From an uncultured Fidelibacterota bacterium (lineage in GTDB: Bacteria > Fidelibacterota > Marinisomatia > Marinisomatales > Marinisomataceae): DNA of 64,000 nucleotides. Under the pieces are notes generated by a model. It searched no databases. It was not told the DNA's origin and saw nothing but the letters and a program-made list of their open reading frames with translations. Every line of letters starts with the position of its first letter. The stretch's first letter is position 1. The position numbers and the translations under genes are program-made. The stretch lies in contig CACKGC010000005.1 of assembly GCA_902599655.1 (NCBI GenBank), forward strand, positions 3,175-67,174, given 5' to 3'. Shown piece after piece: positions 3,707 through 62,875 of this stretch.

Positions 3707-4375
3707 ATGAATTCATTAAAAACGTTTTTAACAATTATACTCCTTATAAGCCTATCGTTTGCTCAAAGTGCTGGAGACATGGAAGCAGAAAACCCTGCAA
3801 GCGATAACTGGCAGGAAAATTATCGATCACTTGAAAGAGGGGAATCAAGAGTTAACATCTATTCCAATGCTGCAGTAGCAGACGTATTTGTATGGAATTC
3901 AACATGGCTGTCAACTGAAAGAACGTTTCCAGCAGTTATATCATTACCTACGGACAATCAAGTCTACACTATAAGCTTATATCCTCAATCACAGTTTCAA
4001 TATCTAACGAACGAATTACAAAATTTTGATTTTGACGCAAGAGATGTTGCTGAGTTTGAACTTCTTCAAGAAGAATTTGAAAGAATGAAAATGGGTACTA
4101 AAAATGTAAGGCCGATTCCAGGAACCAGTGAATCAGTTTTTCTAACATATTGTGACTCAGATGATACTAATTGTGAGCAAGGAATGCATTGGCTAGATCA
4201 ATTTTATGCCAAGTATTATGACGACAAACAAGAGCAAGTTCTTGCTTCAGATTTAACTGGATCAGAGCTAACTGACGCTGAAAAAGCCTTAGTCAGAAGA
4301 CATAGGGTAGGAGTTGCTGGAATGCTTGGCGCCTTTAGCATTGCTCTTTTTTTAATTGATAATTCTGCCTTGTGA
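3707..4375 (+). CDS. Hypothetical secreted protein with C-terminal membrane anchor
   Basis: The ORF is open from 3659, but MNSLKTFLTIILLISLSFAQ at 3707 reads as a signal peptide. C-terminal hydrophobic helix VGVAGMLGAFSIALFLI. The start choice is uncertain. Confidence 0.5.
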   Translation: MNSLKTFLTIILLISLSFAQSAGDMEAENPASDNWQENYRSLERGESRVNIYSNAAVADVFVWNSTWLSTERTFPAVISLPTDNQVYTISLYPQSQFQYLTNELQNFDFDARDVAEFELLQEEFERMKMGTKNVRPIPGTSESVFLTYCDSDDTNCEQGMHWLDQFYAKYYDDKQEQVLASDLTGSELTDAEKALVRRHRVGVAGMLGAFSIALFLIDNSAL

Positions 4376-6312
4376 GAAATATTTTAGTAAATATTAAAGG
4401 TCTAAGCTCTCAAGAGTTTCCAAAAGGTATAACTCCACTTCAAATTATGACTAACACAAAAGGTGTATCTAAGGATTCTATAATTTGTAAAGTTGATGGC
4501 GTTCTTACTGATCTTTCTGTACAGCTTTCAAATGATTGTGACTTGCAATTTATGGATGCAAAAAGTAAAGACGGTCATAGTGTTCTTTTGCACAGCACTG
4601 CTCATTTAATGGCTCAGGCAGTAAAAAGATTATTTCCTAAAACTAAAGTAACTATTGGTCCATATCTAGATAATAGATTTTATTATGATTTTGATGTTGA
4701 AACTCCTTTCTCAGAAGAAGATTTAGCAAAAATTGAAGCAGAGATGGTTAATATATCTAATGAAAATCTTGAAATTATTCATGAAGTGAAATCTAGAGAT
4801 GAAGCTCTGAGCTTCTTTGATAAGATTGAAGAAGATTATAAAGTTGAAATCATTAACGACTTAGATAAAGATGAAATTTTAAAGGTGTATTCACAGGGTG
4901 AATTTACTGACCTTTGTAGAGGGCCGCATGTACCATCAACAGGCGCTATTAAGCACTTTAAGTTGTTATCATCTTCTGCAGCTTATTGGAGAGCTGATGA
5001 GAATAATCAAACTTTGCAACGCGTATATGGCACCTCATTCCAAAATGAAAAAGATTTAAAAAAATATCTTAATATGCTTGAAGAGCAAAAAAAACGTGAT
5101 CATAGAAAAATTGGGAAAGAATTAGATTTATATTTTTTTGATGATGAAGTAGGTCCTGGTCTACCTTTGTGGACACCTAATGGAGCTGTGATGATTGATG
5201 AATTGGAAGCTTTAGCTAAAGAAAAAGAGACAGCAAGCGGATATTTAAGAGTTAAAACTCCTCATTTAACGAAAGGAGAGCTTTATGAAAAGTCCGGTCA
5301 TTTAAAGCATTACATCTCCAGTATGTATCCAGCAATGGATGTTGATGGTATTGACTATTATATGAAACCAATGAACTGTCCTCATCATCACAAAATTTTT
5401 GCAAATACTCCTAAAAGCTATAGAGATCTACCATATAGATTGTCCGAATATGGAACATGTTATAGATATGAAAAATCGGGAGAATTATTTGGATTGATGC
5501 GTGTAAGAAGTATGCAGATGAATGATGCACATATTTATTGTACTGAAGAACAATTTAAAGATGAGTTTATTGGGGTTTGTAATCTTTATATGGATTATTT
5601 CAAAATCTTTGGTATTGAAAAATATGAAATGAGATTAAGTCTTCACGATCCAAAAGGGCTAGGTGAAAAATTTATTGATAATGCTGAATTATGGAAAAAA
5701 ACAGAAGACGATGTTAGAAATGCACTTAAAAGTGCTAATCTGAAATTTGTTGAGTCGGTTGGAGATGCTGCTTTTTATGGTCCTAAAATTGATGTTCAGG
5801 TTTGGAGTTCAATTGGAAGAGAGTTTACCTTAGCTACTAATCAGGTAGATTTTGCTGTTCCTGAAAGATTTGACTTAACATATAATGATAACGATGGTAC
5901 CTCGAAAACTCCTCTTTGTATTCATAGAGCACCTTTGGGAACACATGAACGTTTTATTGGGTTTTTAATCGAACATTTTGGAGGTAATTTCCCGCTTTGG
6001 TTAGCGCCAAAACAAGTAACTGTATTGCCTGTTTCTGATAAATATAATGATTATGCAGAAGAAGTGACAAAAGACCTCAAATCAAAAGGTATAAGAGCTT
6101 CCTTGGATAATCGATCAGAAAAAATAGGTTCAAAAATAAGGGATGCAGAATTACAAAAAATTAACATCATGATTATTGTCGGTGAAAAAGAAGTTGAGAA
6201 TAAAACCGTAACTGTCAGAAGAAGGTTCATAAAAGAGCAAAAAGAATTATCTTTAGGTAATTTTTCCAATGAAGTATTAACTGAAATTAACGAAAGGAGA
6301 GTTTCGAATTAA
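4372..6312 (+). CDS. thrS: Threonine--tRNA ligase
   Basis: 646 aa with TGS, editing and class II core motifs (HSTAHLMAQA, MNCPHHH, FRGPHV-like CRGPHVPST). GTG start overlaps the upstream TGA (GTGA). Confidence 0.97.
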   Translation: MRNILVNIKGLSSQEFPKGITPLQIMTNTKGVSKDSIICKVDGVLTDLSVQLSNDCDLQFMDAKSKDGHSVLLHSTAHLMAQAVKRLFPKTKVTIGPYLDNRFYYDFDVETPFSEEDLAKIEAEMVNISNENLEIIHEVKSRDEALSFFDKIEEDYKVEIINDLDKDEILKVYSQGEFTDLCRGPHVPSTGAIKHFKLLSSSAAYWRADENNQTLQRVYGTSFQNEKDLKKYLNMLEEQKKRDHRKIGKELDLYFFDDEVGPGLPLWTPNGAVMIDELEALAKEKETASGYLRVKTPHLTKGELYEKSGHLKHYISSMYPAMDVDGIDYYMKPMNCPHHHKIFANTPKSYRDLPYRLSEYGTCYRYEKSGELFGLMRVRSMQMNDAHIYCTEEQFKDEFIGVCNLYMDYFKIFGIEKYEMRLSLHDPKGLGEKFIDNAELWKKTEDDVRNALKSANLKFVESVGDAAFYGPKIDVQVWSSIGREFTLATNQVDFAVPERFDLTYNDNDGTSKTPLCIHRAPLGTHERFIGFLIEHFGGNFPLWLAPKQVTVLPVSDKYNDYAEEVTKDLKSKGIRASLDNRSEKIGSKIRDAELQKINIMIIVGEKEVENKTVTVRRRFIKEQKELSLGNFSNEVLTEINERRVSN

Positions 6313-15995: not shown

Positions 15996-16585
15996 TGCCT
16001 CTAATCAAACCTTTATCCAACATCAAAGATAAAGAAACTCAAGAATTAGTAACTTTTTTTAATGAAACCTTAGGATTTTGTCCAAATTCTGTTCTTACTA
16101 TGCAAAAAAAGCCACATTTGGCCCAAGCGTTTGTAAATCTAAATAAAGCTGTAATGGATAATGCTGGTTCCATTTCAAGCGAATTTAAGCGCATTATAGC
16201 TTATATCAGTAGCAACACAGCGGGGTGTAGATATTGTCAAGCTCATACGATTAGAGCTGCTGAAAGATATGGGGGAGAAAAAGAGCGTTTGGAGCAGGCT
16301 TGGGACTTTGAAAACAGTAGGCTGTTTAGTGAAGCAGAAAAAGTTGCATTACGATTCACTATTGCTGCAAGCTCTGTACCAGTAAGCACATCACAAGAAT
16401 TAGAAGAGTTATTACAATATCATTGGGATGAAACAGATATCTTAGAAATTATGAGTGTCATCGCTTTATTTGGATATCTCAATCGATGGAATGATGTGAT
16501 GGGTACCAGCTTGGAAGAAGATGCAAAAGACTCGGCTGAAAGCTTATTGCAAAATCAATGGGACATCGGAAAACATGCTACTTAA
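15995..16585 (+). CDS. Carboxymuconolactone decarboxylase / AhpD-like peroxidase-related protein
   Basis: Redox motif GCRYCQAHT in a roughly 195-aa protein. Confidence 0.78.
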   Translation: MPLIKPLSNIKDKETQELVTFFNETLGFCPNSVLTMQKKPHLAQAFVNLNKAVMDNAGSISSEFKRIIAYISSNTAGCRYCQAHTIRAAERYGGEKERLEQAWDFENSRLFSEAEKVALRFTIAASSVPVSTSQELEELLQYHWDETDILEIMSVIALFGYLNRWNDVMGTSLEEDAKDSAESLLQNQWDIGKHAT

Positions 16586-16916
16586 TGTAGTCTAAAGCCC
16601 AATCATTTAACATATCAAATACCGGAACCAATGTTTTACCTTTTTTAGTCAATGAATATTCAACTCTTGGCGGTATTTCAGCATAGATTTTACGTGAAAT
16701 AATATCATTTTTTTCAAGATCTCTTAATTCTCTAGTTAACATATTTTTACTTATACCATCAATACCACGATGAAGTACACCAAAACGATTGATATTTTGA
16801 GCTATTCTCATAATAATTATGGGTCTCCATTTACCACCGATCATCTTCATAGAATAAGTGATAGGGCAGGAGTCTACCGTGCATCCGCATATGTCTTCAA
16901 AACATTGTTGTTTCAT
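16578..16916 (-). CDS. HxlR-family transcriptional regulator
   Basis: CPITYSMKMIGGKWRPIIIMRI...GISKNMLTRELRDLEKNDIISRKIY..IPPRVEYSLT. Confidence 0.9.
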   Translation of the reverse strand: MKQQCFEDICGCTVDSCPITYSMKMIGGKWRPIIIMRIAQNINRFGVLHRGIDGISKNMLTRELRDLEKNDIISRKIYAEIPPRVEYSLTKKGKTLVPVFDMLNDWALDYIK

Positions 16917-17039
16917 TATAATAGTCCTTTATTTGTTACTATATTAAAAAATAGTGCCTACTTGTTAAATTTAATATTACTTGATAATTTTTCATATCGT
17001 TTTTTAAGTACTAATAATATTAAATGAAAGGATAGAAAA

Positions 17040-17264
17040 ATGAGTAAAAAAGAACCTCATGTATTAGATATTAAAAAAGATAAGAATTATGCTTGGTGTC
17101 AATGTAATGAATCAGAAGGTCAACCATTTTGTGACGGAAGTCATGCTAAAACTGATCATCAGCCAATTGTGTTCAAATCAGATACTTCTAAACAAGTAGC
17201 TCTTTGTGGTTGTAAGCAATCTAAAAATGCACCATATTGTGATGGTACGCATTTAAGCTTATAA
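17040..17264 (+). CDS. CDGSH iron-sulfur domain protein (two CDGSH motifs)
   Basis: CQCNESEGQPFCDGSH and CGCKQSKNAPYCDGTH. Confidence 0.9.
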   Translation: MSKKEPHVLDIKKDKNYAWCQCNESEGQPFCDGSHAKTDHQPIVFKSDTSKQVALCGCKQSKNAPYCDGTHLSL

Positions 17265-17273
17265 GGAGAGATT

Positions 17274-17642
17274 ATGAACAGATTAGATTTTAGTCACCTA
17301 AGAGGTGCAGTATTAATGGGTATGCGCCTATTACTTGCTTTCATTTTTATAAAAGCAGGAATGGGAAAGTGGCCAGTAGTTGATGGACAAGGATTAACGA
17401 ATGCCTTACCATTATTCTTAGTTTACCTAGTAGTACTTTTTGAGTTTCTAGGAGGAGTATTTATGATTCTAGGTTTAAAGTTTGAAGAGTTAACTAAAAT
17501 CGGTGCATTAATGATTGCTATTGTAATGGTAGGTGCAGCATACATGCATTATTTTGCATGGGGAGATCCGTTTGCATCCAAGGATGTATTATATCCAATA
17601 TCATTATTATTGATTTCACTGGTTTTTGTAACTGAAGAATAG
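17274..17642 (+). CDS. DoxX-family membrane protein
   Basis: 122 aa with four hydrophobic helices and a LRLLLAFIFIKAGMGK-type N-terminus. Confidence 0.7.
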   Translation: MNRLDFSHLRGAVLMGMRLLLAFIFIKAGMGKWPVVDGQGLTNALPLFLVYLVVLFEFLGGVFMILGLKFEELTKIGALMIAIVMVGAAYMHYFAWGDPFASKDVLYPISLLLISLVFVTEE

Positions 17643-17667
17643 ATTAATTGGTATATTCGCTATATTT

Positions 17668-18078
17668 ATGAAGAAAAAAACTATAATAGCTGTAGTATTA
17701 GTAATCTTATTTAGTGTCTTTATCCAAGAGAAAATAGTTGAGCAGGATATACGCAAGGCTATTGTTTCATACAATGACAAGCCGTCCTTTACTAAAGAAA
17801 CGATTACTGAGGAAGATTTTAACGGTGCAGCTATTACCATTTTTACTGCTACATGGTGCGGATATTGTAAGGGAGCAAAGCAATTGCTTAACGAAAAACA
17901 GATAGCTTACTTCGAAGTAGATGTAGAAGAATACAATATTTCAAAACGTAAATTGAAAGAAATTGGTATTGAAGACTTTTTTGTTCCTCAAATATTCGTA
18001 GATGGTGTACCAATCGGTGGATTTTCAGATCTGAAAAAAATCTTTGGCAGTGATATGCCAGTTCCAAAAGTTTCATAA
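17668..18078 (+). CDS. Membrane-anchored or secreted glutaredoxin-like protein
   Basis: N-terminal hydrophobic segment. TIFTATWCGYCKGAK ... VPQIFVDGVPIGGFSDL. Confidence 0.8.
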   Translation: MKKKTIIAVVLVILFSVFIQEKIVEQDIRKAIVSYNDKPSFTKETITEEDFNGAAITIFTATWCGYCKGAKQLLNEKQIAYFEVDVEEYNISKRKLKEIGIEDFFVPQIFVDGVPIGGFSDLKKIFGSDMPVPKVS

Positions 18079-18097
18079 AATTAACCTTGTATTTACA

Positions 18098-18132
18098 ATA
18101 AAAAAGGCGCCTTCGACTTGGCGCCTTTTTTG
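18098..18132. terminator. Bidirectional rho-independent terminator
   Basis: A-run, then AAGGCGCC (18104-18111), an 8-nt loop, GGCGCCTT (18120-18127), then a T-run. It lies between convergent genes. Confidence 0.8.
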
Positions 18133-18154
18133 TACTCGAGGTAACTAGAGATAA

Positions 18155-18661
18155 CTATTTTGAGTTACTGTAAGCAAGACTTTCGTCTTCGTCAACTTGA
18201 CTGAGCTGTGGTTCAGTCTCATCAATTAAAATATCTTCTACTGCAACTTCGCTTTGTAAAACTTCAAATACTTCGTTGGCGTAATTGGTAGAATAAAGAT
18301 TTCCATTCCATTCAAACGTATTTCCAGGACCTAGTTCGTTTCTAGCTGCTAAAAATGCGTCATTAAAAGAGGAAATAGGGGTAGTTTCAATTACTTCAAG
18401 TGATTCAACATCATCTTGAAATGGTGGCACTGTTTTTGTAGCCATGGCTTCATCATTGACTGAATTACCCATATTGGTGTTATTAACTAATGAGGTAATC
18501 TCTACATCCACAGTGCCTTCATTGCTAAAGCTTTCTGAGATATTATCGGACAGTTCTACTTCTTCGGATTGATCCATTAGAAAAAACAAGGAACCGATGC
18601 ACAAAATTACACCTGCTAACACGAATTTTTCAACATTATTATACATATTTTTTAACTCCAT
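18155..18661 (-). CDS. Hypothetical membrane-anchored protein, paralog A (shared SFxxAFxAARxELGPG motif)
   Basis: N-terminal TM helix FVLAGVILCIGSLFFL. Motif SSFNDAFLAARNELGPGNTFEWNGNLYSTNY at aa 98-127. Acidic tail. Confidence 0.6.
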   Translation of the reverse strand: MELKNMYNNVEKFVLAGVILCIGSLFFLMDQSEEVELSDNISESFSNEGTVDVEITSLVNNTNMGNSVNDEAMATKTVPPFQDDVESLEVIETTPISSFNDAFLAARNELGPGNTFEWNGNLYSTNYANEVFEVLQSEVAVEDILIDETEPQLSQVDEDESLAYSNSK

Positions 18662-18725
18662 TTGTTATGCCTCTTAATGTCGCTTTCATAACTTATATAC
18701 ATTTAACTTTCATTATTGTTTCAAA

Positions 18726-19112
18726 TTATTTTGCAATTTTATTTAAAAACGTATAATTAATCTCGTATTTATCGCTATCTTTATACGATCTCACTGCTAC
18801 AACATCACCCAAGGTTTCTTCTGAAGTATAAGTTTTATTCTCTTTATTCACATCTATCACCTCATCTGCAATGACAATTACAGTTTCATAATAAAAATTG
18901 GTAGTAAAGTATCGATTATTCCACATAAAGATTTTACCAGGACCTAATTCTTTTCGTGCAGCTCTAAAGGCTTCTGAAAAGGAAGTTTGATCTTCTTTGC
19001 GGTATTGTTCAAAGTAATAGGTTCGTTCAATCATTCCATCTCTATCTATACGTTGATTATCATTAAAGTCAGAAGAGAGGAAGGTAAGAAAAATAAATAT
19101 ATTTGTAAGCAT
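18726..19112 (-). CDS. Hypothetical secreted protein, paralog B (shared SFxxAFxAARxELGPG motif)
   Basis: N-terminal hydrophobic segment. Motif TSFSEAFRAARKELGPGKIFMWNNRYFTTNF. Confidence 0.6.
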   Translation of the reverse strand: MLTNIFIFLTFLSSDFNDNQRIDRDGMIERTYYFEQYRKEDQTSFSEAFRAARKELGPGKIFMWNNRYFTTNFYYETVIVIADEVIDVNKENKTYTSEETLGDVVAVRSYKDSDKYEINYTFLNKIAK

Positions 19113-19196
19113 GTAGGCTCCTTTTATTCACCTCAAAATTACTTTCTTGTATCATATACAATTAAAAAAAAATAAAGTTTCAAAAATTATGGGAAC

Positions 19197-19211
19197 ATTT
19201 TAGATCTAAAT
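19197..19211. repeat. 15-nt repeat ATTTTAGATCTAAAT, copy 1 (contains 12-bp perfect palindrome TTTAGATCTAAA)
   Basis: Identical 15-mer recurs at 19272-19286. Palindrome core is at 19199-19210. Confidence 0.9.
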
Positions 19212-19233
19212 AAATATAATTAATGTATAATAT

Positions 19234-19245
19234 AAATTAAGATCA
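19234..19245. repeat. 12-nt AAATTAAGATCA, left arm of an inverted pair
   Basis: Its exact reverse complement TGATCTTAATTT is at 19315-19326. Confidence 0.85.
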
Positions 19246-19271
19246 ATTTTATTAATAAATTAACTTCAAAT

Positions 19272-19286
19272 ATTTTAGATCTAAAT
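19272..19286. repeat. 15-nt repeat ATTTTAGATCTAAAT, copy 2
   Basis: Identical to 19197-19211. Lies 12 nt upstream of a TTGACT hexamer. Confidence 0.9.
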
Positions 19287-19297
19287 TATTAAAATAC

Positions 19298-19326
19298 TTG
19301 ACTTTTAATAATTGTGATCTTAATTT
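19298..19326 (+). promoter_or_regulatory. Candidate sigma70-type promoter for the DGQHR cassette
   Basis: TTGACT (19298-19303), a 17-nt spacer, then TAATTT (19321-19326). The -10 is weak. The spacer and -10 overlap the TGATCTTAATTT repeat arm. GGAGG SD at 19348-19352 precedes the ATG at 19360. Confidence 0.3.
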
Positions 19327-19359
19327 AAAAGGTAAATTTAACTAATTGGAGGAAACAGT

Positions 19360-20564
19360 ATGTCATACACAATAGGAAAAGTTGGTAATTTTTTTCAGGA
19401 ACAAAATGAAATGATTACTATAGCAATAAATGTAAACGATTTAATAAATAATCATAAAATTTGTTATTATAATTCAGATCTAAATAGAGATGACGAAGAT
19501 CAAGGATATCAAAGGGAACCTAAAGCTCCTCGTTTATCAAAAATTGCAAAATCTTTAGAAAGAACAGTTAATAATGACACATTTTTACCAATTCCTACAG
19601 CTATAACGTTAAGTGATAGAGGGGTCAATTATAAATTTACCGATGGAAAATTAGATATCGTAGATGGAAAATTTAAACTAATTGATGGTCAACATAGAAT
19701 TCTTGCGTATCAAAGAGCTATTGAAGAATTAGGATGTGAAAGTCTTAAAACTCATTATTTACCATGCACAATAATTTTAATTGAAAAGCAAGATCATTTA
19801 ACCGAATTACAAAAAAAGAAATTGAATTAAAACATTTTATTACTATAAATGGTGAAGCTAAAGCTGTTCCTGTTGATTTGGGTAATGGTCTTTTAGTTGA
19901 TTTATATCAGTCAGGCGCATTAAAGAGCGATGAATTTGACGACGTAAAAATTATGTCTACTCAATTAATGATGATGTTGAATGATGAAAGTGGACCTTGG
20001 ATGGACAAGGTTATAATGCCTAATAAGTCAGCATATAAAAAATCTGAGTGGAATGTTGATCCAAAATTAAAACATTTAAGAGTTGTAAAATCAACAAGTC
20101 TAGTTAATTCTTTCAAGCCATTAATAAAATATCTTGAAAATAATGTTTTTACTCCAATGACAACAAGAGAAACTAAGTTAAAAACAGTTTATACAATTTT
20201 AGATAATTTTTGGACAGTGCTGAAAATGAACATGCCTGCCGCAATAGATGAGGCGAGAGATCATGTTTTACAAAAGTCAGTAGGTATCTTTTCGATGCAT
20301 TCTTTGCTTATTGAGCTTTGTAAGGTAATTAAAGCTAGCGGAAATGAGCTATTAACAGATATAGCCAGTTTTGAAAAAAGACTAAATAGTGATGAACTAG
20401 AATTTATGAGTCATGATTTTTGGTCGAATGACAAAGAAAATCCTGGTGAAGCTACAAAATATGGTAATATGAAAGGTTTTAAAAGGTTGTCAGAAGTAAT
20501 GCTTAAAGAAGTAGTAGAAGCTTCTGAAAATCAAGACCTAAATAATGCTACTGAGGTATTTTAA
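19360..20564 (+). CDS. DGQHR-domain protein (DndB-like, ParB/sulfiredoxin fold), reading frame broken at an A7 tract
   Basis: Two ORFs, 19360-19830 and 19878-20564. The first has GYQREPKAPRLSKIAKSLE and LIDGQHRILAYQ. The second frame is open from 19785 and reads ...KKEIELKHFITINGEAKAVPVDLG, the F-x-x-I-N segment expected after DGQHR. The frames join by a -1 shift at CAAAAAAAG (19810-19818). Confidence 0.7.
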
Positions 20565-20609
20565 TAAAATAAAAATAGTTGTTAAATAAGCGACTTGTCA
20601 TCGCAAAAA

Positions 20610-20663
20610 GGGTAGTTAGAATTTTCTCATCTCCTTTTGTTATTGTTTGTTAACTAACTACCC
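20610..20663. repeat. Perfect 10-bp inverted repeat GGGTAGTTAG / CTAACTACCC with a 34-nt loop
   Basis: Arms at 20610-20619 and 20654-20663, in the 130-nt gap between the DGQHR gene and the nuclease gene. A-runs flank it on both sides. Confidence 0.85.
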
Positions 20664-20694
20664 AAAAATTTTAATAATTTTTAATGGAGGAAAA

Positions 20695-21624
20695 ATGACC
20701 GATAAAAACTCAATTTTAGATCAATTCATTATTCAATCAAATACTCAAGATTTGAAATATGCTCATTATCCAAAAAAATATAACGATCTTGATATGAAGA
20801 TATCATTTGGTATGGGTGTTCCAGCAAGGATTCCTTGGATAGCATTTATAGGAAATGAAATGCTTGTGAGTAATGGATTTTATCCAGTTTATTTATATTA
20901 TAAAGATCTTAAAATGCTAATTCTGTCTTATGGTATAAGTGAAACTTCTGAATATGAACAATCATGGCCTGATAGTATAATTTCTAATAAGACAAAAATA
21001 AAAGACTTTTTCGAAGATAATAGTAAAGTTCATAGATATGGTAGTTCATTCGTTCATCGTGCATACACTATTGATGTAAAAGGTAATAATGTAGAATACA
21101 AGCTATATGAAAATGATAAAATTTTAACTCAAAATGAATTAATAAATGATTTAGATGAAATAATTCATGAATATAAAAATTCAATAAATATTGAAATTAA
21201 AAATGAAGATTCTTTAATAAGTCAGGGAAAGTTTTATATGGAAAAACACCTTGAAGAGTTTATCATAACTAATTGGAATGAAATAGATCTTGGAAGTAGA
21301 TATGATTTAATTTATGATGAAGGTGAATTAGTAAGTCAACAATTCAGAACAGATATAGGATTTATTGATATTTTAGCAAAAGATAAAAAAGATGGATCGT
21401 ATGTAGTTATAGAATTGAAAAAAAATCAAACAAGCGATGATACAATAGGGCAAATTGCAAGATATATGGGATGGATTAGAGATCACAAAAAAGATGAGGA
21501 TGTTAAAGGAATAATAATAGCTTCAGAATTTACTAAAAAGTTAAAATATGCAATTAAATACGTAAAAAATATTGATGTTTTATCTTATGAAATTAATTTT
21601 TCATTAAACGAGGTTAAAAGATGA
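20695..21624 (+). CDS. Fusion protein: McrB-N-like (DUF3578/MrcB_N) DNA-reader domain plus NucS/DUF91-like PD-(D/E)XK nuclease domain
   Basis: ATG at 20695 is preceded by GGAGG. The N-terminal half has ISFGMGVPARIPWIAFIGNEMLVSNGFYPVYLYYKDLKMLILSYG. The C-terminal half has TDIGFIDILAKDKKDGSYVVIELKKNQTSDDTIGQIARYMGWI...KGIIIASEF. The ORF track start at 20647 (TTG) is less likely. Confidence 0.7.
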   Translation: MTDKNSILDQFIIQSNTQDLKYAHYPKKYNDLDMKISFGMGVPARIPWIAFIGNEMLVSNGFYPVYLYYKDLKMLILSYGISETSEYEQSWPDSIISNKTKIKDFFEDNSKVHRYGSSFVHRAYTIDVKGNNVEYKLYENDKILTQNELINDLDEIIHEYKNSINIEIKNEDSLISQGKFYMEKHLEEFIITNWNEIDLGSRYDLIYDEGELVSQQFRTDIGFIDILAKDKKDGSYVVIELKKNQTSDDTIGQIARYMGWIRDHKKDEDVKGIIIASEFTKKLKYAIKYVKNIDVLSYEINFSLNEVKR

Positions 21625-22271
21625 AGTTATCACAAGAAAAAAACGAAATATTAGATAAATTGAACTTTATAAGCATTGACAAAATTTCAAAAAAAACTGT
21701 TCCAGATAGTCCAGGAATCTATTTTTTTAGATTAAAAGATAATTCACAATTTAATACATTTGAAAATGATAAAAATGACAGAATATCATATATAGGCAAG
21801 CATGAGAGCAGTTTAAGAGAAAGATTATTTGAAAATCATTTAAATATTTATAATAATTTTTCAACATTTAGAAGGTCAGTTGGATCTATATTGAAACAGA
21901 ACTTAAGTTTAAGTGCTTATCCAAGAATTAGCAAAAAAACAGGTAAAATTAATAGCTATTCAATATTTAGTTTTGCAAAATTAAAAAAAATAAAAGAAGA
22001 TAAAGGTGTTTTCATTTATGATTTTGATAATTTTGATGATGAAATTAAATTGAATGAATGGATTATTTATAATTTTCAGTTTTCATTTCTAAAAGTTAAT
22101 GATATGCTAATAGAAGATGATCTTAAAAAAAATGAGCATGAAATGAGACATATGTTTAAACCTGCATTAAATTGTAACCACGATGATGATTATAATGAAT
22201 TCAGAGATCGCATCAAACGTCTTAGAAAGATATGTGCAAATGAATGTAGATTAAATTTTAAGGAAAATTAA
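21621..22271 (+). CDS. GIY-YIG-family nuclease
   Basis: PGIYFFRLKD...(about 20 aa)...ISYIGKHESSLRERLFENH, followed later by NEHEMRHMFKPALN (conserved Glu and Asn positions). ATGA overlap with the upstream gene. Confidence 0.65.
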   Translation: MKLSQEKNEILDKLNFISIDKISKKTVPDSPGIYFFRLKDNSQFNTFENDKNDRISYIGKHESSLRERLFENHLNIYNNFSTFRRSVGSILKQNLSLSAYPRISKKTGKINSYSIFSFAKLKKIKEDKGVFIYDFDNFDDEIKLNEWIIYNFQFSFLKVNDMLIEDDLKKNEHEMRHMFKPALNCNHDDDYNEFRDRIKRLRKICANECRLNFKEN

Positions 22272-22274
22272 TAT

Positions 22275-22302
22275 TTTACGCATAATATATATTATGTATA
22301 AT
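22275..22302. other. dif: Candidate dif site (XerC/XerD chromosome dimer resolution site)
   Basis: TTTACGCATAA-TATATA-TTATGTATAAT. By hand alignment it matches E. coli dif (GGTGCGCATAATGTATATTATGTTAAAT) at 22/28 and B. subtilis dif (ACTTCCTAGAATATATATTATGTAAACT) at 20/28 with 15 contiguous identities. Both reference sequences are from memory. The inner arms CATAA/TTATG are inverted. It lies in a 40-nt intergenic gap near the +/- gene-orientation switch. Confidence 0.65.
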
Positions 22303-22311
22303 TAATGACAT

Positions 22312-22980
22312 ATGAATAATACACTAGGAAAAACAACAAGACTAATGCTACTTACCTACCTTGGTTTATTAACCCTGGCAGGTTTTTTCTATGGTGGTGG
22401 TAACTATGTCGACAAAACTACACCCTATTATAATTTTTTTAGAAATTTTATAAGTGATCTTGGCCGTACAACAAGTCATTCTGGTGATGATAATACTATA
22501 TCTATTGTTTTGTTCTCAATTGGTATGATGGTTCAATTAATTGCAGTTTTAATATATCTTGTTAAAGCAGCTAATTACTTTTCTAGGGAATTCCCTAAAA
22601 TTAGTTTATTAGCTAAATGCTCTGCAATTTTTGGCTCTATAAGTCTTTTAGGGGTTATTTTAACACCAGCAGATGTTCCTTCGTTATATGCATTACATAT
22701 TTTCTTTGCAAATTCAGTATTTAACGGTGCTTTTGTAACATTAGGCATATATTCTTACTTATTTTACTCTAAAGGTCTTAAAAACGTCACTTATACCCTC
22801 TTTTTATGTTCCTTAATCATTCTTGGATATATAATATTTCTTGAAATTGGTCCTGAACCCTGGAAATCAATTCAATCACTAACTTTTCATGCAACCTATC
22901 AAAAGGTAGCTGTTTTAAGCTTAATTGGAACAGTTTGGGTTATGTCTAAAGGTACAGATCTACTTGACGACAAAATTTAA
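22312..22980 (+). CDS. Hypothetical polytopic membrane protein
   Basis: 222 aa with about six hydrophobic helices. The 3' end overlaps the convergent leuS 3' end by 21 nt. Confidence 0.6.
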
Positions 22981-25401
22981 GAGTCTGTTTGGTACATAAA
23001 TTGTTTTTACAACATTTCCTTCTGATGTGAATTTTTCGACATTTTCTAACGACATAGCTTCAGAAATAACATCTTTTTCATCTGAATCTTTAGCTATATT
23101 AATATTAGCTCTAAGCTTGCCATTTACCTGAACAGCAATAGTAACTTCATCTAATTGTATCAAACCCTCATCGAACTGTGGCCATGGCTGATATGTAATG
23201 GTTTCAGAATGACCTAGTAAGCTCCAAAACTCTTCAGAAAGATGAGGAACAAATGGGCTTAGTATAATAACCAGCTCCTCTATAAGCTTTTTTGAAACTG
23301 TACTACATTTCTGTAAATGATTACAATAAATCATTAGTTGAGATACTGCAGTATTAAAATGTAGTTTTTCGATATCTTCACCTAATTTTTTAATTGTTTG
23401 ATGGTGTAAAAATAATGTATCTTTATCCTCTTCATCACTATCAACAATCTTCGAGGACAATTTACCATTTTCATCAACTATAATTGACCATAATTTATTT
23501 ACAAATCTATAACATCCTTGCAAGCCTTTAGTGCTCCAAGGTTTTGATTTGTTTAAGGGGCCCATAAACATCTCATAAAGCCTCATTGAATCTGAACCGT
23601 ATTCATCCATAATCTCTTCTGGATTTATTACATTTCCTCGAGATTTGCTCATTTTTGTACCATCATCTCCCAAAATCATTCCTTGATTATATAATTTTTT
23701 AAATGGTTCTTTAGTCGATACTAGGCCTAAATCATATAAAACATGATGCCAAAATCTTGAGTACAACAAATGAAGTACTGCATGCTCTTGACCGCCAATA
23801 TATAAATCTACTGGCATCCAATAGTTTTCTTTTTCTTTTGACCATGCTTCGTTTGTGTTATTAGGATCTGTAAATCTTAAAAAATACCAACAAGATCCAG
23901 CCCATTGAGGCATAGTATTTGTTTCTCTAAGTCCAATAATATTACCACTTTCATCTTTTACTTCAACCCAATTTTTAACTAATGATAATGGAGATTTACC
24001 ATCATCTGATGGTTTATAATTTTCAACTTCAGGAAGCATTACTGGCAAATCTTTTTCATGAATTAACTCAACTGAATCGTCCTTATGAATTAATGGAAAT
24101 GGCTCTCCCCAATATCTTTGTCTTGAGAACAACCAATCTCTTAACTTGTAATTAACAGTAGCTTTTCCGATTGAATTTTTTTCAATAAATAAAATTGCTT
24201 CCTTAATTGCTTGATCTACGCTTAAACCATCCATGGATAATGTTTTATCGTTTGAAGAGTTTATAATTTTAGCATTTCCTTTTGCAGTGTATGCAGCTTT
24301 TGATACATCTCCTCCCTCGACAACTTCTACTATAGGAAGATTATATTTTGATGCAAACTCCCAATCTCTTTCGTCATGACCAGGAACAGCCATAATAGCA
24401 CCGGTTCCATAACTAATCAGTACATAGTCAGCTATCCATATTTCAATTTTTTCTTTGCTGAAAGGGTTTATTGCATAGCTTCCAGTAAAAACACCAGTTT
24501 TATCCTTATTAACTTCTGTTCTATCAAAATCTGATTTCTTTTTTGTTTCCTCAATATAAGCTTCCACTTTTGATCTTTGCTCATCAGTAACAATGGAATG
24601 AATTAAGGTATGTTCTGGAGCTAAAACCATATAAGATGCTCCGAAAAGAGTGTCAGGTCTTGTAGTGTATACATTGATAGTATCATTATGTCCATAAATA
24701 TCAAACCCTAACTCTACTCCTTCTGATTTACCAATCCAATTTTTTTGAAGCTCTTTAATATTTTCTGGCCAATCTAAATCATCTAATCCATCAAGTAATG
24801 ATTCTGCATAGTCAGTAATCTTTAAAATCCATTGTCTCATTGGTAGTCTTACTACGGGATGTCCGCCAATATCTGATTTTCCGTTAACAACTTCTTCGTT
24901 AGCAAGGACTGCTTTTAGCTCAGGACACCAATTAACAGCAACTTCTTGTTCATAAGCTAAGCCTTTATTATAAAGTTGCATAAAAATCCATTGAGTCCAT
25001 TTGTAGTAATTAGGATCGGTTGTATTTATTTCTCTTGACCAATCATATGAAAATCCAAGGCTATTAATTTGTTTTTTAAAATTTGAAACATTCTGATGAG
25101 TTGTTTCTTTAGGATGAGTACCTGTTTTAATTGCATATTGCTCTGCTGGAAGTCCAAAAGCATCCCAACCCATTGGATGAAGCACATTAAAGCCTTTCAT
25201 GCGCTTGTAACGTGCTACAATATCTGTTGCCACATAACCTAAAGCATGACCGACATGTAGTCCTGCCCCAGACGGATAAGGAAACATATCCAAAACATAA
25301 TATTTAGGTTTATTGGTAGAGATATCTTCAGACTTAAAAGTTTGATTTTCAGACCAAAATTTTTGCCATCTACTCTCTATGGATTTATGATTGTAGCTCA
25401 A
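22960..25401 (-). CDS. leuS: Leucine--tRNA ligase
   Basis: 813 aa. [18 protein letters not shown] (HIGH region) and KMSKSRGN (KMSKS). Confidence 0.97.
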
Positions 25402-42534: not shown

Positions 42535-43509
42535 TTATTTAGGAATATTTCCAATTCTGGAAAGTCTGGGTAAATAATTTTCTAAGTCTAATGAAAACCA
42601 AGTAATTACTGGTTGTCCAAGTATATGACTCTTAGGCACAAAACCCCAAAATCTTGAATCTTCACTATTATCCCTATTATCTCCCATCATCCAATAATAA
42701 TCTTGTTTTAAAGAATATGTATCAATCTCGCTAATATCTTTATCATTTATTTTTAAATATTTTAAATATTCTTTCTTCATTACTGACATCCATGGATTAA
42801 TTAATGAAGCATTAGGTTGCGGAACATAGTTATCAAATACTTTTCTATCACCCGTTCTTCTATACAGGTCATACGGATCTTCGTTGGTAAATGTTAGCTT
42901 TTGATCGTTAACAACCAATTCAACTTTATTTCCTTCAAATAATAGTAAAGGGATAATTAGCTCCCAATTCATATCCTCGTTGATTATATATGTATCACCT
43001 TTTTTTGGGATTTTAAGCTCTTTCATATTATCTTTATTTCCAAGATTCATAAATATACTGTCATCAATATAGGATTCTGATGATGGTTCTTGCGATAAAA
43101 ATTGACCACCTTCAGGTAGTAAATACTCTTCATTATTAATTAACACTTTTCGATTTTCAATTCTAACATTATCACCAGGCAAACCGATACATCTTTTTAC
43201 ATATTTATATACATTATCTCTGGGATATTCAAAAACTACTACATCTCCTCTTTCTACTTCTTTAAATGCAGGAAATCTATAATCGGGAAGAAATGTAGGA
43301 ATACTTACAGCTGTAAATGGAACCCAAATTTTTTGAGGAACTTTCATACCATAGATGTATCTACTTCCAACAAGCATGTCTCCTCTTAATATATTCTTTT
43401 CCATGCTTCCTGTTGGTACGATATAAAGCTCTACAACTGTTTCTTTTAAGAAAAGGATGGCCAAGATTAAAACAGAAAGTGATTTTATTTCTTTAATGAA
43501 GTTTTGCAT
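42535..43509 (-). CDS. lepB: Signal peptidase I
   Basis: VPTGSMEKNI (catalytic Ser box), KRCIGLPGD, GDNRDNSEDSRFWGFVP. Confidence 0.93.
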   Translation of the reverse strand: MQNFIKEIKSLSVLILAILFLKETVVELYIVPTGSMEKNILRGDMLVGSRYIYGMKVPQKIWVPFTAVSIPTFLPDYRFPAFKEVERGDVVVFEYPRDNVYKYVKRCIGLPGDNVRIENRKVLINNEEYLLPEGGQFLSQEPSSESYIDDSIFMNLGNKDNMKELKIPKKGDTYIINEDMNWELIIPLLLFEGNKVELVVNDQKLTFTNEDPYDLYRRTGDRKVFDNYVPQPNASLINPWMSVMKKEYLKYLKINDKDISEIDTYSLKQDYYWMMGDNRDNSEDSRFWGFVPKSHILGQPVITWFSLDLENYLPRLSRIGNIPK

Positions 43510-44060
43510 TATTTAATATTAGATGATATTGGCTTAAAGGTTAGTCTGTGTATTGGTGTATATGAGTATTTGTCTAATGCTTCCAAGTGTTTTTTTGTTC
43601 CATATCCGCTATTTGATATAAAATCATATTGTGGATAAATATAATGAAATGATCGCATTATTTCATCTCTTGTTACTTTTGCTATAATTGAAGCAGCCAT
43701 AATTTGCTCATATTTTTGATCGCCTTTTATGATACCCTCATTTTCAATTTGAATGTCTAATGAAAACCCATCAACTAAAACTTTATCTGGCCTAACGCTT
43801 AATGAGCTTATTGCCTCTTTCATTGCGTCTTCTGATGCAATCTTAATATTGTGTTTATCAATATAATCATTCCATTTAACTCCAACAGCAACTGAAGCAC
43901 AATTTTCTAAAATCTCGCTATATAAAAATTCTCTCTTCTTTTTAGATAATTTTTTTGAATCATTTAGTGAATCAATAGAGTTATTTAATATTACTGCTGC
44001 AGCTACCACTGGACCAGCTAAACAGCCTCTACCCACTTCATCTACGCCTGCAATAATCAT
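43509..44060 (-). CDS. rnhB: Ribonuclease HII
   Basis: AGVDEVGRGCLAGPVVAAAV and DSKKLS motifs. Confidence 0.93.
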   Translation of the reverse strand: MIIAGVDEVGRGCLAGPVVAAAVILNNSIDSLNDSKKLSKKKREFLYSEILENCASVAVGVKWNDYIDKHNIKIASEDAMKEAISSLSVRPDKVLVDGFSLDIQIENEGIIKGDQKYEQIMAASIIAKVTRDEIMRSFHYIYPQYDFISNSGYGTKKHLEALDKYSYTPIHRLTFKPISSNIK

Positions 44061-44115
44061 TTTTTAAATTAATAATAAAAAATCAATGTACATCTTTTAA
44101 AAAAATAATTAATAT

Positions 44116-45699: not shown

Positions 45700-46468
45700 T
45701 CACATTCTTGATACTGCATTAGAAATTTCAGATCAAGCTGCTGAACTTATTCGTTTGTCTTCTCAAAAAATTAAATCTTTTAAGTCTAAAGGAGAAGTTT
45801 CAAACCTTGTAACTCAAACTGATATTGAAACTGATAAACTTATCACCAAAAAAATTAAAGATTCTTTTCCCGAACATAATATTGTTTCAGAAGAATTAGG
45901 ATCAAATAACTTGGGTTCAGATTATACCTGGTACATTGACCCAATTGATGGTACCAACAATTTTGTACATAATTACCCTTCTTTTGCTGTTTCTATAGGC
46001 GTTTTCTTTAAAAGTAAACCGCTGGTTGGGGTTGTTTATGATATCCCCAATAACGAAAAGTTTTTTGCTTCTAAAGGCGGTGGTTCTTTTAGTAATGATT
46101 CTCCAATATCTGTTTCAGAAAAAGATCATTTTAATGAAGGGTTATACGTTACTGGTTTTATACCATACGATGAAAATTATATTAATAAAAATTTGCAAGT
46201 TATTAAGAATATCAATCTTAATTCACATGGTGTTAGAAGATTGGGAGCAGCTTCCTTAGATATGTGTCATGTAGCTAAAGGTATTGTTGAAGGATTTTGG
46301 GAATACAATTTACAACCGTGGGATACAGCAGCCGGTAATATCATTATTTCTGAAGCAGGCGGAACTGTTTCAAATGAAAACGGAAATCAATATAATTTTG
46401 ATAAATGCATTGTCGCTTCTAACAAAAAAGTTCACAAAGATTTTTTAAAAATTATTAAAGAATCTTAG
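45686..46468 (+). CDS. suhB: Inositol monophosphatase family protein
   Basis: [12 protein letters not shown] and WDTAAG motifs. TTG start overlaps the upstream gene by 14 nt. Confidence 0.85.
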
Positions 46469-47454
46469 TTCAAGTCTAAATAATCTTTAACATCAGATAA
46501 TACGCTTTTCATAAGCTTTTCATCAGTTTCTAGTAGAGTTTTAACTTTTTCTCGGCCTTGAGCAATCTTATCACCTTTGTAAGAGAACCAAGAGCCCATT
46601 TTTTCAACTACGCCACCCTGTAAAGCTAAATCTAGTAAATCTCCAGCATATGAGATTCCTTTACCGTACATAATATCAAATTCAGTCATTTTAAAAGGTG
46701 GAGCTACTTTATTTTTCACAACTTTTACTCTGGTTCTATTTCCAGTCATATCAGTTCCTTCTTTTATAGCAGCTATTCTTCTAATATCCAATCTTACTGA
46801 TGAATAAAATTTTAATGCTCTACCACCCGGAGTTGTTTCTGGACTACCGAACATTACACCAATTTTTTCTCTAATTTGGTTAATAAAAACTACACATGTT
46901 CTAGATTTGTTAATTGGACCAGAAAGCTTTCTTAGAGCTTGTGACATCAATCTTGCCTGTAAACCAACAGTAACATCACCAATCTGTCCATCAAGCTCAG
47001 CTTTAGGCACTAATGCTGCTACAGAGTCAATAACAATAACATCCAAAGCAGCTGTTTCTAGTAATTTTTGAAGAATATCGAGTGCTTGCTCTCCAGAATC
47101 TGGCTGTGAAACCAATAAATCGTCTGCGTTACATCCAAGATTTTTAGCATATTCTGGATCTAATGCATTTTCAGCGTCAATAAATGCTGCTTTTCCACCA
47201 TTTTTTTGACATTCAGCAACAATATGTAAAGCTAGGGTTGTTTTTCCTGAAGATTCAGGTCCAAATACTTCAATAATTCTTCCTTTTGGTACACCGCCAA
47301 CTCCTAAAGCCATATCTAGTGAAAGACATCCAGTTGAAATTGCTTCTACATCAAGATTGGCAGTTCCACCCAATCTCATAATGGATCCATCTCCATACTC
47401 TTTATTAATATCTAATTGAACTGCTTCTAACGCTTTATCTACATTTTTTGCCAT
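46465..47454 (-). CDS. recA: Recombinase RecA
   Basis: [16 protein letters not shown] (Walker A), with L1/L2 loop regions. Confidence 0.98.
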
Positions 47455-61679: not shown

Positions 61680-61681
61680 TG

Positions 61682-62648: not shown

Positions 62649-62671
62649 AAAATTTTGAACACTTTATTATA

Positions 62672-62857: not shown

Positions 62858-62875
62858 GCGTGAATATAATAAATT

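What the first reader, a model, noticed from the sequence alone, without database searches (positions are those of the whole stretch)
22275..22302. dif-like XerC/XerD site in a 40-nt intergenic gap
TTTACGCATAA|TATATA|TTATGTATAAT has the 11-6-11 architecture of dif. It has inverted inner arms (CATAA / TTATG) and divergent outer arms. By my hand alignment it matches E. coli dif at 22 of 28 positions and B. subtilis dif at 20 of 28, with 15 consecutive identities (AATATATATTATGTA). Both reference sequences are recalled from memory. It lies within 700 bp of the point where gene orientation flips from + to -, which is where a terminus-proximal dif is expected. The match is far longer than the generic AT-rich similarity seen elsewhere in the window.
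Basis: partly seen in the sequence, partly recalled or inferred. Interest (0 to 1): 0.7.

Follow-up and report, generated by a model that had tools for sequence, protein, structure and literature searches.

The report
Chromosome dimer-resolution (dif) site, SAR406 bacterium
The 28-base sequence is very likely the real dif site, where a circular chromosome that has fused into a dimer is cut apart before cell division, in an uncultured marine SAR406 (Marinimicrobia) bacterium; that is ordinary biology newly placed in this phylum, but the site also bounds a fast-changing restriction/defence island and is copied exactly by uncultured marine tailed phages.

Summary
TTTACGCATAA-TATATA-TTATGTATAAT lies at 22275-22302 in a 40-nt gap and is unique in the window. 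It matches E. coli dif at 22/28 and B. subtilis dif at 20/28, with both references now verified. The window comes from a Marinimicrobia/SAR406 bacterium. GC skew and gene orientation both converge here, as expected at a terminus. Six of six related genomes (LeuS identity 97% down to 61%) carry the same element just past the 3' end of leuS, each at its own GC-skew maximum. The right arm is invariant, the left arm is 73-100% conserved, the spacer varies freely and the flanks are at random-level identity. That is the signature of a Xer site. xerC/xerD/ftsK could not be checked because none lies in the window, and KOPS polarity is inconclusive. Verdict: a genuine dif site, a new member of a known kind. 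Two side findings raise the interest. First, DNA on the left-arm side is hypervariable between strains and rich in restriction-modification and defence genes, with homology between strains starting exactly at the site. Second, two families of uncultured marine tailed phages carry the same site, some as tandem arrays with different spacers. No integrated form or second flanking site was found, so Xer-mediated mobility is unproven.

The parts
22275..22302 (+). Complete 28-bp dif site (11-6-11)
   Evidence: Searches show it is present and unique. Searches give 22/28 identity to E. coli dif and 20/28 to B. subtilis dif. Searches show it is conserved in 6/6 related genomes.
22275..22285 (+). Left arm TTTACGCATAA, the inferred XerC-binding half-site
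   Evidence: It matches 8/11 positions of the E. coli XerC arm GGTGCGCATAA. It is 73-100% conserved among relatives, with the inner GCATAA most conserved and the outer bases least. Assigning it to XerC is an inference from homology to E. coli dif.
22286..22291 (+). Central 6-bp spacer TATATA, the inferred strand-exchange region
   Evidence: It varies freely among relatives: TATGTG, TAAAGA, TAGTTA, TTTACG, GATATG, TAACAG.
22292..22302 (+). Right arm TTATGTATAAT, the inferred XerD-binding half-site
   Evidence: It matches 9/11 positions of the E. coli XerD arm. It is 11/11 identical in all six relatives, down to 61% LeuS identity. This agrees with the general rule in Kono 2011 that the XerD arm is the more conserved.
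22000..23000 (.). GC-skew sign change and convergence of gene orientation (terminus-like)
   Evidence: One search gives the skew table. One search puts the cumulative G-C maximum at 22654. One search counts 21+/3- ORFs to the left and 5+/35- to the right.
19174..22274 (+). Strain-specific, low-GC (about 26%) defence islet that ends exactly at the left arm. It holds a DndB-like DGQHR gene (19360-20564, frameshifted here), an MrcB_N+NucS_C nuclease (20647-21624) and a GIY-YIG_2 nuclease (21621-22271).
   Evidence: One search gives the Pfam matches. One search shows that homology to L009 starts at 22275 and to L008 at 22253, and that the left boundary is at 19173. One search gives the GC content. 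One search shows the frameshift.
22312..22980 (+). Conserved right-flank gene encoding a DUF998-like membrane protein
   Evidence: Right flanks are homologous in 28/28 pairs of contigs.
22960..25401 (-). leuS, whose 3' end is linked to the site throughout the lineage
   Evidence: The site lies 20-700 bp past the leuS stop codon in L008, L009, L011, L012, L013 and L016.

Best explanation
This is the chromosomal dif site of a Marinimicrobia (SAR406/Fidelibacterota) bacterium. By homology to E. coli dif, a XerC-type recombinase binds the left arm (TTTACGCATAA) and a XerD-type recombinase binds the right arm (TTATGTATAAT). When sister chromosomes have become a dimer through an odd number of crossovers, two dif copies are brought together at the division septum, probably by FtsK translocation. 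Two sequential pairs of strand exchanges at the edges of the 6-bp spacer then restore monomers. What is shown here: the sequence and its architecture, its similarity to experimentally defined dif sites, its position at the point where skew and gene orientation converge, and deep conservation with the arm/spacer pattern of a Xer site. What is inferred: which protein binds which arm, dependence on FtsK, and the recombination activity itself.
For: (1) Architecture and similarity. The site is 11-6-11, and positions 7-12 and 17-22 are 6/6 complementary. It matches E. coli dif at 22/28, B. subtilis dif at 20/28, and predicted dif sites of L. casei and F. johnsoniae at 23/28. (2) It is unique in the window, and shuffles give no match. 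(3) Position. The cumulative GC-skew maximum is about 350 bp away, and gene strand flips from 21+/3- to 5+/35-. (4) In L008, L009, L011, L012, L013 and L016 the same element lies 30-1000 bp from each locus's own skew maximum. In the complete chromosome OZ243041.1 it is at about 54% of the length. (5) Conservation profile relative to the window: left flank 0.29-0.41, left arm 0.73-1.0, spacer 0.33-1.0, right arm 1.0 in all six, right flank 0.23-0.95. In L013 and L016 the 28-mer is the only conserved intergenic element. (6) Eighteen further marine metagenome contigs of this lineage carry it with the same right flank. (7) Independent phage genomes copy exactly these 28 bp and nothing beyond them. 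That is what is expected of a site read by host machinery.
Against: No xerC, xerD or ftsK gene could be shown for this genome. Single-copy status was tested only over 64 kb. KOPS-like polar motifs could not be separated from coding-strand bias. The origin position in OZ243041.1 is unknown, so the 54% figure is only suggestive. There is no experimental evidence.
Confidence: 0.9

Rival explanations
1. The 28-mer is conserved as a sigma-70-type promoter for the downstream DUF998 gene, not as a recombination site. It reads TTTACG, then 16 nt, then TATAAT, and the -10 element ends 9 nt before the ATG.
For: The promoter scan lists 22275-22302 as a 10/12 match with a perfect TATAAT. The DUF998 gene starts at 22312 and has no other obvious promoter in the 40-nt gap.
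Against: The conservation pattern is the opposite of a promoter's. The -35-like outer bases are the least conserved, while the inner palindromic bases CATAA/TTATG, which would be promoter spacer, are the most conserved. In L013 and L016 the DUF998 gene is absent and the right arm points into the 3' end of convergent leuS, yet the right arm is still 11/11. Phages carry the same 28-mer in an unrelated context. A secondary promoter role in this strain is not excluded.
Confidence: 0.03
2. It is a Xer-type site served by a single recombinase, as in XerH/difH, XerS/difSL or XerA, rather than by a XerC/XerD pair.
For: The recombinase genes were not seen, so the number of recombinases is unknown. Single-recombinase systems exist in several lineages (review PMC5357621, listed).
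Against: The site has the canonical 28-bp 11-6-11 layout. Its two arms are distinct and match the E. coli XerC and XerD arms at 8/11 and 9/11 respectively. The asymmetric conservation, with the right arm invariant and the left arm variable, is the XerC/XerD pattern reported across phyla. From my own knowledge, difSL and difH differ in length and arm structure.
Confidence: 0.06
3. It is only an attachment site (attB) for mobile elements or phages that bring their own integrase, and it sits near the terminus by coincidence.
For: The left flank is a hotspot of strain-specific islands, and phages carry the same sequence.
Against: No integrase is present in the islands or in the held parts of the phages. 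The site is kept in lineages with almost no island, such as L012 with about 1.1 kb. It resembles true dif sites in both arms, and it coincides with the skew maximum in seven genomes.
Confidence: 0.02
4. It is a chance AT-rich palindrome in a 32% GC genome.
For: The core pattern CATAA-N6-TTATG, at up to 1 mismatch, occurs at about the chance rate in the window: 9 observed against 7.2 expected.
Against: The full 28-mer has no near match in 100 shuffles. It is conserved across genomes whose flanks are at random-level identity.
Confidence: 0.005

Closest known systems
E. coli dif (GGTGCGCATAATGTATATTATGTTAAAT), the XerC/XerD/FtsK chromosome dimer resolution site
   Same: Both are 28 bp with an 11-6-11 layout, and they share 22/28 identity: 8/11 in the XerC arm, 5/6 in the spacer and 9/11 in the XerD arm. 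Both lie at the terminus, where GC skew converges.
   Different: The outer bases of the left arm differ, as do positions 7-8 of the right arm (TA in place of TT... AT). The cognate recombinases and FtsK/KOPS were not demonstrated here.
Firmicutes and FCB-group predicted dif sites from Kono et al. 2011: B. subtilis ACTTCCTAGAATATATATTATGTAAACT, L. casei ACTTCGCATAATATATATTATGTAAACT, Chlorobium chlorochromatii TTGTTGTATAATATATATTATGTAAACT, Flavobacterium johnsoniae TTGACCTATAATTTATATTATGTAAAAT
   Same: Several share the same TATATA spacer and the same inner arms. Identity is 20-23/28. The rule that the XerD arm is more conserved than the XerC arm also holds.
   Different: The exact right arm TTATGTATAAT does not occur anywhere in that 641-organism list. 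Marinimicrobia were not covered in 2011.
IMEXs, integrative mobile elements exploiting Xer: CTX-phi, VGJ-phi, TLC-phi, the gonococcal genetic island, and dif-type double jelly-roll phages
   Same: Here, too, foreign strain-specific DNA abuts dif on the XerC-arm side, and phage genomes carry full-length dif mimics, sometimes in tandem. In described IMEXs, spacer compatibility governs which partners can recombine (my own knowledge of CTX-phi tropism).
   Different: Described phage IMEXs are filamentous or double jelly-roll, not tailed (PMC12715192). Here no second dif-like site bounds the islands, and no prophage-host junction was found. IMEX behaviour is therefore a hypothesis, not a finding.
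Acinetobacter pdif modules, gene cassettes bracketed by XerC/D-like sites on plasmids
   Same: The class B phage contigs have 2-2.8 kb segments bracketed by two same-strand dif-like sites.
   Different: The context is different (phage genomes rather than plasmids), as are the cargo and the site orientation (direct here). This was not analysed further.

Membership tests
dif (Xer chromosome dimer-resolution site) | A 28-bp site made of two 11-bp arms with inverted inner halves around a 6-bp spacer | tested here: met
   The site reads TTTACGCATAA-TATATA-TTATGTATAAT. Positions 7-12 and 17-22 are 6/6 complementary, above Kono's threshold of more than 4.
dif (Xer chromosome dimer-resolution site) | Sequence similarity to experimentally defined dif sites in both arms | tested here: met
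   Identity is 22/28 to E. coli and 20/28 to B. subtilis. Both references were verified in MG1655 and in PMC3025954.
dif (Xer chromosome dimer-resolution site) | Location at the replication terminus (GC-skew shift point, convergence of gene orientation) | tested here: met
   In the window the skew flips from + to - and the cumulative maximum is at 22654. ORFs run 21+/3- on one side and 5+/35- on the other. The same coincidence holds in six relatives. A whole-replicon skew plot was not possible. The site is at about 54% of the complete chromosome of L012.
dif (Xer chromosome dimer-resolution site) | Single copy per chromosome | tested here: inconclusive
   It is unique in the 64-kb window and in each 9-22 kb related locus.
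dif (Xer chromosome dimer-resolution site) | Phylogenetic conservation with conserved arms, a free spacer, and a XerD arm more conserved than the XerC arm | tested here: met
   The right arm is 11/11 in 6/6 relatives, the left arm is 73-100% conserved, the spacer 33-100%, and the flanks are at random-level identity.
dif (Xer chromosome dimer-resolution site) | Cognate XerC/XerD (or a single Xer) recombinase and FtsK encoded in the genome | not testable with these tools
   tblastn with E. coli XerD finds no homologue in the window or in the Marinimicrobia loci held.
dif (Xer chromosome dimer-resolution site) | Polar FtsK-orienting (KOPS/SRS-like) motifs converging on the site | tested here: inconclusive
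   E. coli KOPS and B. subtilis SRS are both absent (0/0). Purine-rich words such as GAAGAAG are skewed 30:5 towards the site, but this cannot be separated from coding-strand bias in 64 kb.
dif (Xer chromosome dimer-resolution site) | Xer-dependent recombination or dimer resolution at the site | not testable with these tools
   This needs an experiment.
IMEX (as a description of the island at 19174-22274) | The element is bounded by dif on one side and a second, often degenerate, dif-like site on the other | tested here: not met
   No second site rises above chance in the window, L008 or L009. Right-arm matches of 10/11 or better occur 7 times, against about 10.6 expected. Nothing is present at the far junctions, window 19173 and L008rc 3218.
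IMEX (as a description of the class C tailed phages) | The element carries a dif-like attP and lacks its own integrase | tested here: inconclusive
   An exact copy of the host 28-mer is present. No XerD-like integrase is found in the roughly 21 kb of the phage genome covered by the held loci, but the genomes are only partly held.
IMEX (as a description of the class C tailed phages) | An integrated form is found at the host dif, flanked by hybrid sites | tested here: not met
   None of the 80 metagenome loci joins phage DNA to host DNA. No viral-collection contig has the host right flank after the site.

The most novel reading that the evidence does not exclude
In surface-ocean SAR406 the dif site may be more than a housekeeping site. 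It may be the entry point of a Xer-exploiting mobilome. On this reading, restriction-modification and defence cassettes turn over on the XerC-arm side of dif. Uncultured tailed phages use exact dif mimics as attP sites for integrase-free integration, which would make them the first tailed-phage IMEXs. Host spacer polymorphism (TATATA, TATGTG, TAAAGA, TTTACG and others) and phage tandem arrays of 2-4 sites with different spacers, including TAAAGA as in the AG-337-K10 lineage, would reflect a compatibility arms race over the 6-bp crossover region. Even without integration, the exact 28-mer would assign these phage families to SAR406 hosts.
Probability: 0.3. Interest if true: 0.65.

Novelty: new member of a known kind. 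Interest (0 to 1): 0.38.

Why it matters
Placing dif gives a fixed marker for the replication terminus in SAR406/Marinimicrobia, an abundant and almost entirely uncultured ocean phylum that the published dif surveys did not cover. It can be used to orient and check assemblies of this group, because metagenome contigs repeatedly break at this site. It defines the lineage's consensus, (T/A)T(T/G)(A/G)(C/T)(G/A)CA(T/G)AA-N6-TTATGTATAAT. It also points to two leads that can be tested directly: a defence-gene hotspot whose edge is the dif left arm, and phage families that can be linked to SAR406 hosts through an exact 28-bp site. The dif site itself is expected biology.

Tried and rejected
(1) A second, degenerate dif-like site bounding the island, which would be the IMEX signature. 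I scanned the window, L008, L009, L012, L013 and L016 by arm scores. Secondary hits occur at chance frequency and none lies at the island's far junction. The candidate at 19204-19231, with a 10/11 right arm, is a chance-level match. (2) De novo KOPS-like polarity. Many skewed 7- and 8-mers were found, but they are purine-rich coding-strand words, so nothing can be concluded from 64 kb. (3) A Xer recombinase in the window, the relatives, or the viral and metagenome loci. tblastn with E. coli XerD found only one unrelated weak hit, in L221. (4) An RNA-family explanation. Rfam finds nothing at the site. (5) A promoter explanation. A sigma-70-like match exists, but it is rejected as the reason for conservation. 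(6) Host assignment of the phages through deposited relatives. TerL is below 27% identical to any GenBank phage. A blastn search with the site region against deposited phages gave only weak partial hits, mostly small Microviridae. (7) A prophage-host junction in the viral collection: 0 hits. (8) The roughly 1 kb without ORFs beside the phage-borne site. It has no tRNA and no convincing iterons. (9) Literature on dif or Xer in Marinimicrobia: none found in the searched library.

Full report
1. THE OBSERVATION

The 28-mer TTTACGCATAA-TATATA-TTATGTATAAT is at window 22275-22302 on the + strand. It fills most of the 40-nt gap between a GIY-YIG nuclease gene (21621-22271) and a DUF998-like membrane-protein gene (22312-22980).

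It is unique in the window at up to 3 mismatches, and none of 100 shuffles gave a match. Scoring only the two 11-nt arms, it matches 22/22 and the next-best position in 64 kb matches 16/22. The bare inner motif CATAA-N6-TTATG, at up to 1 mismatch, is not unusual (9 found, 7.2 expected). The signal is therefore in the full site, not in the core palindrome.

The E. coli dif 28-mer occurs exactly once in the 20-kb MG1655 stretch fetched (1,580,000-1,600,000), at 1,590,750 between yneL and hipA. Both references are printed in Kono et al. 2011, PMC3025954. Identities are 22/28 to E. coli and 20/28 to B. subtilis.

2. WHAT ORGANISM, AND WHAT IS AROUND THE SITE

LeuS (22960-25401, minus strand) finds its closest relatives in Marinimicrobia/SAR406 (Fidelibacterota) genomes:
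- single-cell genome AH-287-F08, 97% identity (L008);
- single-cell genome AG-337-K10, 90% (L009);
- three genomes at 77-78% (L010-L012), of which L012 is a complete 969,550-bp chromosome, OZ243041.1;
- more distant genomes at 65% (L013) and 61% (L016).

The window has 32% GC. On the + strand, GC skew is about +0.1 to +0.2 from 1 to about 22 kb and about -0.1 to -0.25 from 23 kb onward. The cumulative G-C maximum is at 22654. Non-overlapping ORFs of at least 100 aa run 21 plus / 3 minus to the left of the site and 5 plus / 35 minus to the right. Positive-then-negative skew together with converging genes marks a terminus, not an origin.

3. COMPARATIVE EVIDENCE

This is the decisive part. Every related locus that extends at least 700 nt past the leuS stop codon carries the element:

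| Locus | Site |
|---|---|
| L008 | identical to the window |
| L009 | TTTACGCATAA-TAAAGA-TTATGTATAAT |
| L011 | TTTACGCAGAA-TAGTTA-TTATGTATAAT |
| L012 | TTTGCGCATAA-TATATA-TTATGTATAAT |
| L013 | ATTGCACATAA-GATATG-TTATGTATAAT |
| L016 | ATGATGCATAA-TAACAG-TTATGTATAAT |

Ungapped identity to the window:

| Segment | Identity to window |
|---|---|
| 56 nt to the left | 0.29-0.41 (random level) |
| Left arm | 0.73-1.0 |
| Spacer | 0.33-1.0 |
| Right arm | 1.0 in all six |
| 56 nt to the right | 0.23-0.95 |

In L013 and L016 the DUF998 gene is missing and the site abuts the 3' end of leuS. There the 28-mer is the only conserved intergenic sequence.

In each of these loci the cumulative skew maximum lies 30-1000 bp from the site. 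In OZ243041.1 the site is at about 524,95x, or 54% of the chromosome. That fits a terminus if the record starts near the origin, which I could not check.

An invariant XerD-type arm, a more variable XerC-type arm and a free spacer is the pattern Kono et al. report across phyla. The closest predicted sites in their table are L. casei and F. johnsoniae (23/28) and Chlorobium chlorochromatii (22/28). The exact right arm TTATGTATAAT does not occur in their list. I found no paper on dif in this phylum.

4. MECHANISM

The best-supported reading, at about 0.9 confidence, is a canonical dif site. A XerC-type recombinase binds the left arm and a XerD-type recombinase binds the right arm. Strand exchange takes place at the spacer borders. 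The reaction is activated at the septum and resolves chromosome dimers.

Shown here: architecture, similarity, position and selective constraint. Inferred: protein assignments, dependence on FtsK, and activity.

Not testable here: the presence of xerC/xerD/ftsK.

KOPS-like polarity is inconclusive. The E. coli and B. subtilis motifs are absent, and the skewed words found are purine-rich coding-strand words.

5. RIVAL EXPLANATIONS

- **Promoter.** The 28-mer also reads as a sigma-70-like promoter, TTTACG-16-TATAAT (10/12), ending 9 nt before the DUF998 start codon. The conservation profile is the reverse of a promoter's: the outer -35-like bases are the least conserved and the inner palindromic bases the most. 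The site also persists where there is no downstream gene. A secondary promoter role in this strain is possible.
- **Known RNA family.** Rfam finds nothing.
- **Single-recombinase Xer system.** This cannot be excluded without the recombinase genes, but the two distinct arms argue for XerC/XerD.

6. WHAT ELSE THE SITE MARKS

(a) A hypervariable defence hotspot.
- Homology between the window and L009 begins exactly at base 22275. Homology with L008 begins at 22253. Everything immediately to the left is strain-specific.
- Among 19 genomes or contigs of this lineage, only 1 of 171 left-flank pairs share extended homology. That pair is L211 and the window, which carry the same island type, and L211 has the spacer TTTACG. 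Right flanks are homologous in 28 of 28 pairs.
- The 42 ORFs within 4 kb to the left are dominated by restriction-modification and defence domains: ResIII, C5, N6/N4, D12 and EcoRI-type methylases, HsdR/HsdS, GmrSD, GIY-YIG_2, NOV_C and MrcB_N/NucS. L008 carries a Dcm-type methylase and a putative restriction enzyme.
- In the window the islet is 19174-22274 at 26% GC. It holds a DndB-like gene, an MrcB_N/NucS nuclease and a GIY-YIG nuclease.
- No second dif-like site bounds these islands. Xer-mediated insertion is therefore not supported, and the reason for the sharp boundary remains open.

(b) Phages carrying the site. Scanning IMG/VR for GCATAA-N6-TTATGTATAAT gave 54 loci.
- **Class C** (L097, L102, L109, L115, L127, L132, L134, L105/120, L106/124, L122, L092/138). 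These contigs are 70-99% identical to each other on both sides of the site, have 34% GC, and show no similarity to the host loci. They encode TerS, TerL and a P22-like portal. They carry the exact host 28-mer, with identity ending at the 28-bp borders, or tandem arrays of 2-4 sites spaced 3-11 nt apart with different spacers. One phage spacer, TAAAGA, equals that of the L009 host lineage.
- **Class B.** This is a second tailed-phage family, with TerL and TerS identified. The related site sits just upstream of terS. Some genomes have two sites bracketing 2-2.8 kb.
- No integrase homologue was found in the held parts of these genomes. No phage-host junction was found. No close deposited relative exists.
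- According to PMC12715192, the described phage IMEXs are filamentous or double jelly-roll. Tailed phages with full dif mimics would extend that, but integration is unproven. The sites could instead resolve multimers of the phage's own circular DNA.

7. VERDICT

This is a dif site, a new member of a known kind in a phylum where it had not been described. On its own it is ordinary. The hotspot and the phage copies are the parts worth following up.

Noticed in passing
window 16525-22274; L008 13128-19250; L009 13128-22439; L145-L222 (class A contigs): The DNA on the left-arm side of the site is hypervariable between strains and dominated by restriction-modification and defence genes. The right side (DUF998, leuS) is conserved. 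Homology between strains starts at or within 22 nt of the first base of the site.
   Followed up: yes
L097 (site at rc 3016), L127, L132 4871-4898, L134, L102, L109, L115: A family of uncultured marine tailed phages (TerS, TerL, P22-like portal, amidoligase+GATase genes, 34% GC) carries the exact host 28-mer in a conserved intergenic region about 2.5 kb upstream of terS. Identity to the host stops at the borders of the 28-mer. No integrase was seen in the held parts and no integrated form was found.
   Followed up: partly
L106 5683-5749; L105 rc 5911-5969; L122 5781-; L138 rc about 4060-4150: In some of these phages the site is present as a tandem array of 2-4 copies, 3-11 nt apart, with different spacers (TATATA, TAAAGA, TAAACG, TAAGGA, TAAATG). 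TAAAGA is also the spacer of the host lineage AG-337-K10 (L009). This may broaden spacer compatibility.
   Followed up: partly
L091, L117 1043-3430, L118, L129, L135, L137; single-site relatives L093-L096, L099-L101 and others: A second tailed-phage family (TerL phrog_2, TerS phrog_309) has a dif-like site with the same right arm just upstream of terS. Several genomes have two same-strand sites 2-2.8 kb apart that bracket small ORFs (phrog_1392, phrog_35453), a cassette-like arrangement.
   Followed up: partly
L001 1, L002 1, L003 17; L145, L173, L177, L192, L197, L201, L202, L209, L211, L212, L222 ends; L010 end: Metagenome contigs of this lineage very often end at or inside the site. Three independent contigs start at the same base inside the spacer, one of them preceded by Nextera adaptor sequence. 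The site evidently acts as an assembly breakpoint, because it is shared by strains and phages with different flanks.
   Followed up: partly
window about 19811 (gene 19360-20564): The DndB-like DGQHR gene is split into two ORFs here by a 1-nt deletion in an A-run, relative to the intact 401-aa gene in L004 and L005. This is either a frameshift or a homopolymer sequencing error. In L004 it is the MrcB_N/NucS gene that is split instead.
   Followed up: partly
L005 3109-3136, L007 967-994 versus window 22286-22291: Contigs whose GIY-YIG protein and 60-nt left flank are identical to the window's carry the spacer TATGTG instead of TATATA. The crossover region is therefore polymorphic within a very close population.
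   Followed up: no
window 22275-22302: The 28-mer also reads as a sigma-70-like promoter (TTTACG, 16 nt, TATAAT), with the -10 element ending 9 nt before the DUF998 ATG. This could give a near-leaderless transcript, so the site may have a secondary role in this strain.
   Followed up: partly
window 19198-19211 and 19273-19286: Two exact copies of TTTTAGATCTAAAT, with a palindromic core TAGATCTA, lie 75 nt apart upstream of the first gene of the defence islet (2 found, 0.28 expected). They may be an operator for control of the islet.
   Followed up: no
L044 9085-9112: An unclassified MAG with only 56% LeuS identity has a dif-like site, ATGTCGCATAA-TATGTA-TTATGTAAACC, about 1.2 kb past leuS. The leuS-dif linkage may therefore extend beyond Marinimicrobia.
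   Followed up: no
L152, L157, L160, L162-L165, L191, L193, L195, L196, L199, L200, L207, L210, L214, L215, L220: Many other metagenome contigs carry full dif-like sites with the same right arm but different left arms (ACGTCGCATAA, GCGTCGCATAA, ATGTCGCATAA, ATTGCGCATAA, TATGCGCATAA). They are presumably dif sites of other uncultured lineages. This right arm is absent from the 2011 catalogue.
   Followed up: no
window 43000-47000 and 61000-64000: There are local interruptions of the negative GC skew (values near 0). They coincide with short runs of plus-strand ORFs within the minus-strand replichore.
   Followed up: no
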